Assembly (NCBI RefSeq): GCF_054482525.1
Contig: NZ_CM137006.1
Direction: 5' to 3' (one strand)
DNA length: 64,000 nucleotides
Positions 38,833-41,800 of this stretch are shown piece by piece. The position numbers are program-made. Each line of letters starts with the position of its first letter. The first letter of the stretch is position 1.

Positions 38833-41800
38833 GTTAGAGTCTTTCAGTCTGCGATGATGGGAAATCCCGGAGTGACTGAAAGACGTTTAAGTTATGAATG
38901 ATCGCTTTTTTTGCAAAATTGCTGTGCAGAAATACTAACCTTCGGGCAGGCGATCATTCATAAGCACTCTGCTTTTATTCCGATTAACTGTGGGTGGTTT
39001 GTTGGATAGAGTGCTTCCCTTACTGTATATATCGTTTCGCCCGCTTTTGCGGGTTTTTCTTTTCAAATCCCTTTCATTTCTCAGTGTAAAACTACGCCAT
39101 CCGTTATTTGCGGAGGTGAGGCTATGAAATCCATGGACAAAATTTCAACGGGCATTGCCTACGGCACCTCCGCAGGCAGTGCTGGCTACTGGTTTTTACA
39201 GTGGCTTGATCAGGTCAGTCCGTCACAGTGGGCTGCGATTGGTGTACTGGGGAGTCTGGTTCTGGGCTTCCTGACTTATCTGACAAATCTGTACTTCAAA
39301 ATCAGAGAAGACAAGCGTAAGGCTGCACGGGGAGAGTAATTCAATGACTCAAAACTATGAACTGATTGTGAAAGGGATCCGCAATTTTGAGAATAAAGTT
39401 ACGGTAACTTTAGCGTTACGGGACAAAAAACGCTTTGACGGCGAAATTTTTGACCTGGACATCTCGCTGGACCGTGTTGAAGGTGCCGCGCTGGAGTTTT
39501 ATGAGGCAGCAGCCAGAAGGAGCATCAGACAGGTCTTCCTGGATGTTGCTGCCGGGTTATGTGAAGGGGATGAGCAGTCGCCGGAAAAGCGCCCCGTAAT
39601 TTTAGAGGCGCAGAATGTGTGGATAACCTACAAAGGAAAGCTACCAGGAAGAATTACTGGTTCTCTGAAGACTCCTCCGGAATCACAACCTTAAGTCACT
39701 GACCGGAACAGATAAACCTGTCCGTGGGCAGAAACCGATAAATCCTGATAAATATCCATGAACGCAAAAATCAGATACGGCCTGTCGGCTGCCGTTCTGG
39801 CACTGATTGCCGTCGGTGCGCCCGCGCCTGATATTCTCGACCAGTTTCTGGATGAAAAAGAAGGTAACCACACAACGGCATACCGCGATGGTTCCGGCAT
39901 CTGGACCATCTGTCGGGGTGCCACGATGGTGGATGGAAAACCCGTTTTTCCCGGTATGAAACTGTCGAAGGAAAAATGCGACCAGGTCAACGCCATTGAG
40001 CGTGATAAGGCGCTGGCATGGGTGGAGCGCAATATTAAAGTACCACTGACCGAACCACAAAAAGCGGGTATCGCGTCATTTTGTCCCTATAACATTGGCC
40101 CCGGTAAGTGTTTTCCATCGACGTTTTATAAGCGGCTGAATGCTGGTGATCGTAAGGGCGCATGCGAGGCGATTCGCTGGTGGATAAAAGATGGTGGGCG
40201 CGATTGCCGCATACGTTCAAATAACTGCTATGGACAGGTTATTCGTCGTGACCAGGAAAGCGCATTAGCCTGTTGGGGAATAGATCAGTGAGCAGAGTCG
40301 CCGCGATTATTTATGCTCTGGTTATCTGCATCATCGTCTGCCTGTCGTGGGCGGTCAATCATTACCGTGATAACGCCATCACCTACAAAGAACAGCGTGA
40401 TAAAAAAGTCAGTGAGCTGAAGCAGCTGACCGCCACCATCGCTGACATGCAGCAGCGTCAGCGTGATGTTGCTGCGCTCGATGCAAAGTACTCGAGAGAA
40501 TTAGCCAATGCGAAAGCTGAAAATGAAACTCTGCGCGCTGATGTTGCCGCTGGTCGTAAGCGCCTGCGGGTCAATGCCAGTTGCTCCGCAGCCGTGCGTG
40601 AAGCCACCGGACCCACCAGCGTGGATAATGCAACCAGCCCCAGACTGGCAGACACCGCTGAACGGGATTATTTCACCCTCAGAGAACGGTTGATGACGAT
40701 GCAGAAGCAACTGGAAGGGGCACAGCTATACATTCGTGAGCAATGTCTCAGATAAAAACCGGCCAAGGATAATCCGCTAAAGATTCGCCGGTGGCGAAAG
40801 AGAGCCAAGGTGTCAACCTACGCTATTACTTATGATAATGCAACAGACGAAGCGGGACATATTGGCGCATAACAAATCAGTGCAGGCTAACTGCAGGAAG
40901 AACTTAGGGCGTGAACGTAGAAAACCTAAGTAACGCACATTACATCTATAACGAGATGAAAGAGCTACAGCGACAGAAAGGTATACTGGAAAGTGGTGCA
41001 GGGCTTGGTGTGACAATCCAGTCTGCCTATCAATATAGTGCTTTTCTTGAGGCCATACGCCCGCATGCAGTTGCTGAACTTAACAGCCGTATTGAGGAAA
41101 AGAAATCCGCGCTGGTTAATTTGGGTGCTTCCTTCTCTATATACGAGCATAATAAGGCGGGTTGGAAACCCGCCTAAAGCACTTAGAAACTGCGTGGAGC
41201 TGTGGAAAGAATGGATGCCAGTTCTTCCTTCGATAAATCCCAGCTTCGATTTACAGCGTCAATTTTCTTAAACTCATCAAGCATTGCGTTATAGAGATGT
41301 TCTGTACGTGAATGAGTATTGGCAATGGGCTGTTTCTGTTCGGGGAAGCGATCAATTTTCTGATATGCCTCAATGATACTGAAGTAATCGCATTCATTAT
41401 TACCGTCGAAACCTGGGAGCTGAATTGCCCCATCATGTATTTTTAGATGATGGTCACGGACTAATTCTTTTTGCTCGTCATCACTAAGTTTCCTGAAAGC
41501 ATTGGAAAGTCCGCGATACATATTCAAGACAGCAGTAACAAAATCACGATCTTCTTTACTTGGTTCATCAACATCCAAATGTGAATATTCGGCCTTCATA
41601 ACCCAACCATTACCAGATGACACAGCATATTTAACAAGCTGTGGATCAATATCAGTTTCGATACCTAGGTGGATGGCAATGTCACATAACAAAATGGTAT
41701 TGATTTTATCTTTAATATCCATGAGTTAACCCTCTGAAGTAAAAAGTAATATCTACACCCGTTAGCTCATGAAGTCTATTGATCTGGCTCATATCAGCGG

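What the first reader, a model, noticed from the sequence alone, without database searches (positions are those of the whole stretch)
40911..41722. Opposite-strand YfbU-family gene alone between the lysis and packaging modules
A 179-aa protein with YfbU/UPF0304-like motifs is encoded on the opposite strand between Rz/Rz1 and the HNH/terminase genes, converging on a doubtful 88-codon ORF over a shared hairpin. This junction is a known cargo insertion site in lambdoid phages (bor-type loci) and a frequent home of lysogen-expressed exclusion or defence genes. YfbU-family proteins have no established function as far as I know, so a single-gene prophage cargo of that family is a reasonable candidate for an undescribed activity.
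Basis: partly seen in the sequence, partly recalled or inferred. Interest (0 to 1): 0.5.

Follow-up and report, generated by a model that had tools for sequence, protein, structure and literature searches.

The report
Prophage cargo gene of YfbU family
A small, self-contained gene for a YfbU-fold protein sits backwards between the lysis and DNA-packaging genes of an E. coli prophage, in a slot that sister prophages leave empty or fill with other cargo. Its best-characterised relative is Kamadhenu, a single-gene anti-phage system from Lactococcus, so it is a good but untested candidate for a defence gene expressed in the lysogen.

Summary

It is a roughly 0.72-kb, low-GC cassette (39% vs 53%) with its own hairpin and upstream region. 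It lies antisense to the late operon, exactly between Rz/Rz1 and the HNH start codon.

Near-identical prophages show this junction empty, or holding iss/bor, or a GNAT gene. So the 'bor-type cargo slot' reading is shown directly.

Orthologues down to 30% identity sit antisense in the late region, five of six between lysis and terminase genes, in six different backbones. All close ones are exactly 179 aa and under strong purifying selection.

The 88-codon ORF is a real, independent phage gene (phrog_5415), not a partner.

Kamadhenu, a 180-aa YfbU-domain protein, is a published single-gene abortive-infection system whose escape mutants map to a phage annealase. A Kamadhenu-like sequence falls in the same PHROG (6084) and shares the GFDGN.E and NSH motifs.

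Verdict: a divergent, prophage-borne new member of a known kind. Defence function is inferred (about 0.5), not shown.

The parts
41183..41722 (-). CDS of the 179-aa YfbU-fold protein (pI 5.0, 20.5 kDa, no signal peptide). Conserved motifs are F-x-GFDGNNE (G104, F105, D106, N108, E110) and N135-x-H137.
41155..41175 (.). Perfect 9-bp, 3-nt-loop hairpin 7 nt downstream of the YfbU-like stop codon. Probable weak intrinsic terminator for the minus-strand gene (tail UUAUUAUG). On the plus strand it is followed by AAAGC, so it should not stop late transcription.
   Evidence: Orthologous loci each carry a different hairpin at the same position after the stop. It was not flagged by the consensus terminator scan.
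41723..41860 (-). 138-nt upstream region that travels with the gene. It contains the SD GAGGG (41734-41730) and a candidate sigma-70 promoter: -35 TTGCCG (41803-41798), 19-nt spacer, -10 TAGACT (41778-41773).
   Evidence: Sequence. Similarity to all alternative junction types starts exactly at the HNH ATG, 41861. The promoter score of 8.3 is not above background (6.7 +/- 2.3), so it is inconclusive. The same elements are kept in the 83% orthologue, and a -10-like element ends 39-51 nt before the ATG in five of six orthologous loci (24 nt in L017).
41138..41860 (-). The YfbU-like cassette proper (hairpin, gene and upstream region), about 0.72 kb. The gene is 39.1% GC against 52.8% in the flanking late genes.
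   Evidence: Similarity of the 88-aa ORF to its D2 homologue ends at 41137. The cassette is found in 224 of 5426 complete E. coli genomes, full-length in 223, always chromosomal, at >=95% identity. GC values.
40737..41860 (.). The whole variable segment relative to the empty form of the junction. In strain 190693 (L008) a 61-bp stretch takes its place, and the Rz stop and HNH ATG are 42 nt apart.
   Evidence: empty junction in 184 genomes.
40911..41177 (+). 88-aa late-strand gene (phrog_5415, function unknown). It is an independent neighbour, not a partner. Its last 12 codons are a fusion into the cassette's hairpin.
   Evidence: No Pfam match. The small ORFs next to orthologues of the YfbU-like gene are unrelated to it.
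40273..40755 (+). Rz i-spanin gene with Rz1 embedded at 40508-40693. This is the left flank of the slot.
41861..42211 (+). HNH endonuclease gene, followed by P27-family TerS (42361-42843) and TerL (42843-44600). This is the right flank of the slot.

Best explanation
The 0.72-kb segment 41138-41860 is an autonomous 'moron' cassette carried in the lysis/packaging junction of a lambdoid prophage. It encodes one cytoplasmic, two-domain, all-helical YfbU-fold protein.

**Proposed mechanism (inferred).** The gene is transcribed from its own weak promoter in the lysogen, antisense to the silent late operon. There it acts as a single-protein anti-phage (abortive-infection or exclusion) factor of the Kamadhenu type. 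That is, it acts after DNA entry and is triggered by, or targets, the invader's recombination/replication machinery. For Kamadhenu this is a single-strand annealing protein.

When the resident prophage itself is induced, Q-antiterminated late transcription runs head-on through the cassette and would turn it down.

**Shown here:** gene, fold, cassette boundaries, presence/absence polymorphism, antisense placement kept across backbones, purifying selection, remote homology to a Kamadhenu-like protein.

**Inferred:** expression in the lysogen, anti-phage activity, the trigger, and the self-silencing.
For: **Fold and family**
- Pfam YfbU.
- A profile of 102 relatives hits E. coli YfbU 1WPB/4LR3 at E 3e-16.

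**Link to a proven defence gene**
- Kamadhenu is a 180-aa single-gene YfbU-domain Abi system acting after injection (PMC11381338).
- Its escape mutants all map to G22 of a Sak-like SSAP (PMC12184496).
- A Kamadhenu-like gene from the same plasmid collection (pUCCL629C, L007) aligns to the family profile over 163 columns (hhalign probability 99%, E 7e-18).
- It shares GFDGN.E and NSH.
- It scores 112 bits on the same phrog_6084.

**Moron anatomy**
- The junction is empty in 184 genomes and holds the cassette in 224.
- Alternative cargo is iss/Bor or GNAT, on the same antisense strand.
- GC is 39% against 53%.
- There is a hairpin after the stop here and in orthologues.

**Conserved placement**
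- Relatives at 83, 62, 58, 34, 30 and 34% identity all lie antisense in the late region.
- Five lie between lysis and terminase genes and one between Q and holin.
- The phages have different lysins and different terminases.

**Selection**
- pN is 0.10-0.39 with pS saturated at 0.75-0.86, and every close orthologue is exactly 179 aa.
- The gene is intact in 223 of 224 genomes.

**Company on other mobile elements**
- Next to an 'Abi family protein' on an Acinetobacter plasmid, RelE/ParE in Xanthomonas and RES-Xre in Kosakonia.
- In a variable region just after the tail-fibre genes of a P2-like Yersinia phage.
- Next to a Ser/Thr kinase-PP2C pair in L017.

**Phage types.** Only temperate phages carry it among 50,697 phage records.

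**Independent prediction.** DefensePredictor lists two other E. coli 'YfbU family protein' clusters as predicted novel defence genes, with mean log-odds 5.99 and 4.78 against a cutoff of 4 (PMC13092281 Table S10).
Against: - No experiment exists on this clade.
- The relation to Kamadhenu is remote: 24% identity by profile alignment, and BLASTP gives only 31% over 70 residues.
- The Kamadhenu-like protein is closer to chromosomal YfbU (31% over 152 aa, E 4e-23) than to this protein.
- This protein fails the NCBIfam YfbU equivalog cutoff (35.5 vs 90 bits), which the Kamadhenu-like protein passes at 115.5. Function may therefore have diverged.
- There is no PADLOC match.
- The promoter prediction is no better than background, and the hairpin has a poor U-tract.
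- The same slot also carries non-defence cargo (iss/Bor, a serum-resistance lipoprotein), so position alone does not imply defence.
- The Kamadhenu-like sequence used had to be rebuilt across a 1-nt frameshift, and its identity to the published pUCCL624_130 could not be checked.
Confidence: 0.5

Rival explanations
1. Lysogenic-conversion factor acting on host physiology rather than on phages. Like chromosomal YfbU, it would modulate cell death or survival after DNA damage or stress, altering lysogen fitness, persistence or prophage induction.
For: Chromosomal yfbU deletion abolished mazEF-dependent death after DNA damage (PMC2646832). The fold is shared. The same slot carries host-fitness cargo such as iss/Bor. 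The protein is cytoplasmic and acidic.
Against: Identity to chromosomal YfbU is only 15-17%. The NCBIfam equivalog model is failed. Two family-typical residues (N108, H137) differ from chromosomal YfbU but are shared with the anti-phage Kamadhenu-like protein. Every E. coli already has yfbU at its own locus. The restriction of the close clade to phage late regions points to a phage-related selective pressure.
Confidence: 0.2
2. Phage-benefit or counter-defence function. The protein would interfere with a host YfbU/MazEF-type death pathway or another host defence, for example as a decoy or by forming mixed oligomers, to protect the prophage's own induction or establishment.
For: YfbU crystallises as a large assembly (16 chains per entry in 1WPB and 4LR3; PMC11381338 legend), so mixed oligomers are conceivable. 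Phages often carry diverged copies of host proteins as inhibitors (general knowledge).
Against: The gene is antisense to the late operon and outside the early operons, so it would be poorly placed for expression during lytic growth. At 15-17% identity, co-assembly with host YfbU is unlikely. It is found on plasmids beside toxin-antitoxin and Abi genes, which is typical of defence rather than anti-defence.
Confidence: 0.12
3. Selfish or nearly neutral passenger. The cassette would be kept by linkage and by recombination at module boundaries, with no measurable phenotype, or acting only as an addiction-type element.
For: Lambdoid mosaic junctions collect many genes of unknown function (phrog_5415, 18591, 3983, 10235 in this same region). 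Within E. coli the cassette is nearly clonal at >=95% identity.
Against: There is strong purifying selection with saturated synonymous sites and no length change across genera. A nearly invariant polar motif is kept across 102 relatives. The gene is intact in 223 of 224 genomes. It was acquired independently into the same relative position in unrelated backbones. No partner gene exists that could serve as an antitoxin.
Confidence: 0.1

Closest known systems
Kamadhenu (Lactococcus plasmid pUCCL624, single-gene abortive-infection system; Grafakou et al., NAR 2024, PMC11381338; escape mutants in PNAS 2025, PMC12184496)
   Different: Only about 24% identity. Gram-positive plasmid versus enterobacterial prophage late-region slot. 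The Kamadhenu-like protein passes the NCBIfam YfbU equivalog model (115.5 bits) and is closer to chromosomal YfbU, whereas this protein scores 35.5 bits. The anti-phage phenotype and annealase-linked escape are shown only for Kamadhenu.
E. coli chromosomal YfbU (b2294; PDB 1WPB, 4LR3; UPF0304)
   Different: 164 aa, and a core-genome locus between hxpA and yfbV rather than a mobile element. It has GFDAATE and NAQ instead of GFDGNNE and N(S/T)H. Pairwise BLASTP is not significant. Its reported role is in mazEF-dependent death after DNA damage (PMC2646832).
Lambda bor / E. coli iss moron
   Same: Occupies the very same junction (after Rz/Rz1, before the packaging genes) on the same antisense strand in sister prophages whose flanks are 89-95% identical to the window's. 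It is the classic single-gene cargo expressed in the lysogen.
   Different: Bor/Iss is a 97-aa outer-membrane lipoprotein (phrog_260) conferring serum resistance. The YfbU-like protein is cytoplasmic, unrelated in sequence and twice the size.
PHROG 6084 (unknown function)
   Same: Full-length match at 275 bits, the best-fitting curated family. It also captures the P2-like Yersinia phage homologue (156 bits), the Kamadhenu-like protein (112), an Acinetobacter plasmid protein (102) and K-12 YfbU (64).
   Different: The PHROG carries no functional annotation. It is a remote-homology cluster, not a functional family.

Membership tests
YfbU superfamily (Pfam PF03887 / UPF0304) | Significant match to the Pfam YfbU profile | tested here: met
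   i-E 2.1e-12, 47.8 bits, residues 38-172 on model positions 38-164 of 166.
YfbU superfamily (Pfam PF03887 / UPF0304) | Two-domain all-helical fold of 1WPB | tested here: met
YfbU superfamily (Pfam PF03887 / UPF0304) | Conserved G-F-D-x-x-x-E segment and downstream N | tested here: met
   G104, D106 and E110 are invariant across the phage clade, the Kamadhenu-like protein and K-12 YfbU; N135 is >=90% conserved across the 102 relatives of alignment A1.
Chromosomal YfbU equivalog (NCBIfam NF003936) | Score at or above the curated cutoff of 90 bits | tested here: not met
   35.5 bits. The Kamadhenu-like protein scores 115.5 and the Acinetobacter plasmid protein 106.2, both passing.
Chromosomal YfbU equivalog (NCBIfam NF003936) | Core-genome locus hxpA-yfbU-yfbV | tested here: not met
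   The gene lies in a prophage between Rz and HNH. The K-12 locus is shown.
Kamadhenu anti-phage system | Single gene of about 180 aa consisting of a YfbU domain, with no conserved partner | tested here: met
   179 aa. Neighbouring small ORFs differ between orthologous loci. Cassette boundaries enclose one gene.
Kamadhenu anti-phage system | Sequence relatedness to Kamadhenu closer than to non-defence YfbU | tested here: inconclusive
   On the family profile the Kamadhenu-like protein scores 68.3 bits and K-12 YfbU 63.1. N108 and H137 are shared only with the Kamadhenu-like protein. However, the Kamadhenu-like protein is itself nearer to K-12 YfbU.
Kamadhenu anti-phage system | Protection against phages after DNA injection, with an abortive-infection phenotype | not testable with these tools
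   Needs plaque and liquid-infection assays.
Kamadhenu anti-phage system | Escape by mutation of the phage single-strand annealing protein | not testable with these tools
   Needs escape-mutant selection. Side observation: no annealase was found among ORFs of >=90 aa in the resident prophage's early region, only a RecE-like exonuclease.
Lambdoid 'moron' (Hendrix/Juhala sense) | Present in some and absent from other otherwise similar phage genomes, at a module boundary | tested here: met
   Empty junction in L008 and 184 genomes; cassette in 224 genomes; other cargo in L009, L010 and L003.
Lambdoid 'moron' (Hendrix/Juhala sense) | Base composition different from the flanks | tested here: met
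   39.1% vs 52.8% GC.
Lambdoid 'moron' (Hendrix/Juhala sense) | Own promoter and terminator | tested here: inconclusive
   A hairpin after the stop codon is present here and, with different sequences, in orthologues, but it has a weak U-tract and no scan hit. The promoter candidate scores 8.3 against a background of 6.7 +/- 2.3.
Lambdoid 'moron' (Hendrix/Juhala sense) | Expressed from the repressed prophage | not testable with these tools
   Needs RNA-seq or 5'-RACE of a lysogen.
Bor/Iss lipoproteins | Lipoprotein signal sequence and phrog_260 / Bor similarity | tested here: not met
   Only phrog_6084 is hit. The N-terminus is a confidently modelled helix of a helical bundle. Iss in L009 hits phrog_260.
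PD-(D/E)XK restriction endonucleases (Cfr10I/Bse634I) | Alpha/beta nuclease core fold | tested here: not met

The most novel reading that the evidence does not exclude
The prophage-borne clade (phrog_6084 core; 517 clusters at 50% identity, with all six sampled relatives at >=30% identity lying antisense in phage late regions) is a widespread, so far untested single-protein abortive-infection family of Enterobacteriaceae and beyond. It would sense phage recombination proteins. On this reading, chromosomal YfbU, the DNA-damage 'death protein', is a domesticated relative of a phage-defence module. That would give a mechanistic handle, in genetically tractable E. coli, on a fold whose activity has been unknown since its structure was solved in 2004.
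Probability: 0.3. Interest if true: 0.6.

Novelty: new member of a known kind. Interest (0 to 1): 0.4.

Why it matters
If the cassette protects lysogens, then about 4% of complete E. coli genomes carry a defence gene that the tested version of one standard tool does not report: PADLOC-DB v2.0.0 gave no match. These genomes include ST131, APEC and other clinical lineages. Close copies (at least 90% identical) also occur in Klebsiella and Citrobacter.

It would extend the only functional data for the YfbU fold (Kamadhenu in Lactococcus) to Gram-negative prophages. It would also provide an E. coli model in which to find out what the conserved GFDGNNE / N-x-H site does and what triggers it.

It also documents, with defined boundaries, a multi-state cargo slot at the Rz/HNH junction: empty, iss, GNAT, or YfbU-like. 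That slot could be mined systematically.

Tried and rejected
**No signal**
- PADLOC-DB: no match for either ORF.
- Single-sequence phmmer against PDB found only a spurious stathmin repeat. The profile search was needed to reach 1WPB.
- BFVD gave one borderline unnamed viral match (E 1e-3, TM 0.70) and nothing informative.

**Two-gene hypothesis**
- I tested whether the 88-aa ORF is a late-expressed partner or antidote. This is rejected. Orthologous loci have unrelated small ORFs, and the 88-aa gene occurs without the YfbU-like gene in strain D2.

**Regulatory elements**
- The consensus scan found no minus-strand promoter or terminator for the gene.
- My own weight-matrix scan gives a candidate no better than background.

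**Getting the authentic Kamadhenu sequence**
- The paper's supplements are not held.
- pUCCL624 is not in the plasmid collection.
- Only pUCCL629C carries a close copy, and it is split by a 1-nt frameshift that I repaired by eye.

**Linking to DefensePredictor**
- Its two predicted YfbU-family clusters (WP_088144751.1, WP_001177149.1) could not be tied to this family by cluster look-up. The stored table is truncated.

**Literature**
- Searches for the protein accessions, PHROG ids or phage names found nothing.
- Searches for papers on this slot gave nothing specific. One search failed on a term that was too short.

**Selection analysis**
- dN/dS proper could not be computed because synonymous sites are saturated, so only pN and pS are given.
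Full report
**1. What is there**

The minus strand of the window carries an ATG ORF of 179 codons at 41183-41722. A GAGGG ribosome-binding site lies 7 nt upstream of the ATG. The gene sits between two blocks of plus-strand genes:
- Upstream: the spanin genes Rz (40273-40755) and Rz1 (40508-40693).
- Downstream: HNH endonuclease (41861-42211), P27-type small terminase (42361-42843) and large terminase (42843-44600).

A plus-strand GTG ORF of 88 codons (40911-41177) converges on it. 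A perfect 9-bp hairpin with a 3-nt loop (41155-41175) lies 7 nt past the YfbU-like stop codon, within the last codons of the 88-codon ORF. Its free energy is -16.2 kcal/mol with z -2.9 on the minus strand.

**2. Family and fold**

- The protein matches Pfam YfbU (PF03887, i-E 2.1e-12).
- It matches phrog_6084 end to end (E 4e-82).
- It scores only 35.5 bits on NCBI's YfbU equivalog model, whose cutoff is 90.
- It has no PADLOC hit.
- An exhaustive search found 517 clusters of relatives at 50% identity, mostly 175-190 aa.
- In an alignment of 102 relatives, G104 is invariant and L12, W40, L79, F105, D106, N108, N135 and H137 are at least 90% conserved. These form the motifs F-x-GFDGNNE and N-S/T-H.
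- The profile of that alignment reaches E. coli YfbU structures 1WPB and 4LR3 at E 3e-16.
- The AlphaFold2 model is confident (pLDDT 94.7).

So the protein is a true but divergent member of the YfbU superfamily. It is not an equivalog of the chromosomal protein, which sits in the core locus hxpA-yfbU-yfbV.

**3. It is a cassette in a multi-state cargo slot**

The 1.2-kb segment is 99-100% identical in two temperate E. coli phages and in many E. coli chromosomes. The cassette alone (41138-41860) occurs in 224 of 5426 complete genomes. It is full-length in 223, always chromosomal, and at least 95% identical.

Prophages with 89-97% identical flanks show the same junction in other states:

| Junction state | Example |
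|---|---|
| Empty, 42 nt between Rz stop and HNH ATG | L008; 184 genomes |
| iss/Bor on the antisense strand | L009 (phrog_260) |
| Antisense GNAT acetyltransferase plus a 66-aa gene | L004, L010 |
| 76-aa form of the small ORF plus a 187-aa plus-strand gene, in a more diverged backbone (HNH 73% identical) | L003, strain D2 |

- A second slot between HNH and TerS carries an antisense phrog_3983 gene in L011.
- Pairwise alignments put the variable segment at 40737-41860. The right edge falls exactly at the HNH start codon in every comparison.
- The D2 homologue of the small ORF stops matching at 41137. The YfbU-like cassette proper is therefore 41138-41860, and the last 12 codons of the 88-aa ORF are a junction artefact running into the hairpin.
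- The gene is 39.1% GC against 52.8% in the flanks.

**4. The 88-codon ORF**

It is a real gene, for three reasons:
- It matches phrog_5415 at E 2e-38.
- Its D2 homologue is 85.5% identical.
- Its pN/pS is 0.32 in frame, against 0.79 and 1.84 off-frame.

It has no Pfam domain. It is not a partner of the YfbU-like gene, because the small ORFs beside orthologues in other phages are unrelated to it and to each other.

**5. Comparative context**

Relatives at 83, 62 and 58% identity, and more distant ones at 34, 30 and 34%, were located on their contigs. In every case the gene lies on the strand opposite to the phage late genes. It sits between the lysis cassette and the terminase genes, or once between Q and holin.

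The backbones differ widely:
- GH19 or lysozyme-type endolysins.
- P27/TerL, lambda Nu1/GpA-like, or Terminase_2 packaging enzymes.

All close orthologues are exactly 179 aa. Non-synonymous differences are 0.10-0.39 per site while synonymous sites are saturated at 0.75-0.86. Each orthologue is followed by its own, different, hairpin.

Upstream, a candidate promoter (TTGCCG, 19 nt, TAGACT) is kept in the 83% orthologue. A -10-like element ends 39-51 nt before the ATG in five of the six loci (24 nt in L017). However, the score is not above background.

Elsewhere the family appears in these settings:
- In a variable region just after the tail-fibre genes of a P2-like Yersinia phage.
- On plasmids next to an Abi family protein, RelE/ParE or RES-Xre.
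- More remote members lie beside an integrase or a NYN nuclease, or in uninformative contexts.

Among 50,697 phage records only four carry a homologue, and all are temperate. The resident prophage shows no annealase among early-region ORFs of at least 90 aa, only a RecE-like exonuclease.

**6. What is known about the family**

- Chromosomal yfbU was reported as needed for mazEF-dependent death after DNA damage (PMC2646832).
- In 2024 a 180-aa YfbU-domain protein from a Lactococcus plasmid, Kamadhenu, was shown to be a single-gene anti-phage system. It acts after adsorption and injection and has an abortive-infection phenotype (PMC11381338).
- In 2025 all Kamadhenu escape mutants were mapped to G22 of a Sak-like single-strand annealing protein (PMC12184496).
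- A 2026 review still lists the YfbU domain as unlinked to any other defence function (PMC13064643).

I found a Kamadhenu-like gene on pUCCL629C, from the same strain collection, split by a 1-nt frameshift. After repair it reads as 180 aa. Its relationships are as follows:
- It carries GFDGNEE and NSH, the two features (N108, H137) that chromosomal YfbU lacks.
- It aligns to the family profile over 163 columns (hhalign 99%, E 7e-18, 24% identity).
- It scores 112 bits on phrog_6084, against 64 for K-12 YfbU and 275 for the window protein.
- It is nevertheless closer to K-12 YfbU (31% over 152 aa) than to the window protein (31% over 70 aa).
- It passes the NCBIfam YfbU model, which the window protein fails.

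The window protein is thus the most divergent of the three groups.

Independently, DefensePredictor's table for 3,000 E. coli strains lists two other 'YfbU family protein' clusters as predicted novel defence genes, above its strict cutoff. They were not tested, and I could not link them to this clade.

**7. Most likely mechanism**

*Shown:*
- An intact, selected, single-gene, low-GC cassette for a cytoplasmic YfbU-fold protein.
- It is inserted antisense in a slot that otherwise holds classic lysogen-expressed cargo.
- The same placement recurs in unrelated temperate phages.

*Inferred:*
- It is transcribed in the lysogen from its own weak promoter.
- It acts like Kamadhenu, stopping an incoming phage after DNA entry, probably in response to the invader's recombination or replication proteins.
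- The conserved polar cluster D106/N108/E110/N135/H137 would be the functional site.
- The resident phage's Q-dependent late transcription, which runs head-on through the cassette, would damp it during its own lytic growth.

I put this at about 0.5. The rivals are:
- A host-physiology or DNA-damage death modulator (0.2).
- A phage-benefit or counter-defence role (0.12).
- A near-neutral passenger (0.1).

**8. Novelty and score**

The gene is already annotated as 'YfbU family protein', and a YfbU-domain single-gene defence system is published. The kind is therefore known. What is new is this:
- A divergent, prophage-restricted clade with a fixed antisense late-region placement, nearly always at the lysis/packaging junction.
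- Defined cassette boundaries.
- A multi-state slot.

All of this is in E. coli, where the mechanism could be dissected. A specialist would find it plausible rather than surprising. Interest is 0.4, and novelty is 'new member of a known kind'.

Noticed in passing
L004 4235-4720 (-) and L010 962-1447 (-); same slot as window 40737-41860: In sister prophages the Rz/HNH slot holds an antisense 161-aa GNAT N-acetyltransferase with no PHROG match, followed by a 66-aa plus-strand gene (phrog_10235). GNAT toxins of toxin-antitoxin systems have this size, but no antitoxin-like partner on the same strand was seen.
   Followed up: partly
L011 1309-1824 (-): A second cargo slot. In strain 201609 an antisense 171-aa gene (phrog_3983, unknown function) lies between HNH and the small terminase gene, while the Rz/HNH slot is empty.
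   Followed up: partly
L003 4375-4938 (+): In strain D2 the 76-aa form of the small ORF (phrog_5415) is followed by a 187-aa plus-strand gene of unknown function (phrog_18591) instead of the YfbU-like cassette.
   Followed up: partly
L017 6990-8488 (-) and 10538-11170 (-): In a prophage carrying the 62% orthologue (named by its source as a Superficieibacter sp. protein), a Ser/Thr protein kinase plus PP2C phosphatase pair lies right next to it between lysis and packaging genes. A HicA/HicB pair lies just upstream of the holin. This late region is packed with defence-like cargo.
   Followed up: no
L022 6402-9420 (-) and L023 3923-6941 (-): Next to the 34% relative, between Q and the holin, sits a cytosine DNA methylase followed by a 661-aa HATPase_c_3 protein. 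This is a possible further defence or modification module in a late-region slot.
   Followed up: no
L007 4257-4798 (pUCCL629C, NZ_PP589679.1): The Kamadhenu-like gene in this RefSeq plasmid record is split into two 'YfbU family protein' CDSs by a 1-nt frameshift near 4557. This is either a sequencing error or a pseudogene. Restriction (LlaJI family) and methylase genes lie within 6 kb.
   Followed up: partly
window 38523-38832 (+): Four tRNA genes (Met-CAT, Lys-TTT, Thr-TGT, Gly-TCC) lie in a row between the Q antiterminator gene and the holin. PGAP calls the first one tRNA-Ile in strain W46, as expected for a CAT anticodon modified to lysidine.
   Followed up: no
window 33451-33876 (+), 34784-34958 (+), 29672-29723 (-): The same prophage carries other accessory elements: a Ren-like exclusion protein (phrog_142), a hok/sok locus (Rfam sok, 110 bits) and the DicF antisense RNA (76.7 bits).
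   Followed up: no
window 26556-29027 (-): An 823-aa RecE-like exonuclease (phrog_2082) has no annealase (RecT, Red-beta, Erf or Sak) among neighbouring ORFs of >=90 aa. This is of possible relevance if the YfbU-like protein senses annealases as Kamadhenu appears to.
   Followed up: partly
window 1701-1828 (-) and 3261-3349 (-): Rfam matches to EFASI RNA (100.8 bits) and to C4 antisense RNA (62.2 bits) lie in the first 4 kb, far upstream of the prophage. This suggests another mobile element at the left end of the window.
   Followed up: no
protein clusters P0029, P0033, P0034, P0038 (143-156 aa) and hit H231 (NZ_CP142949.1): A few database variants keep only the first ~100 residues of the YfbU-like protein at 93-98% identity and then diverge. 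One complete genome has only 63% of the cassette. These are occasional disrupted copies against 223 intact ones.
   Followed up: no
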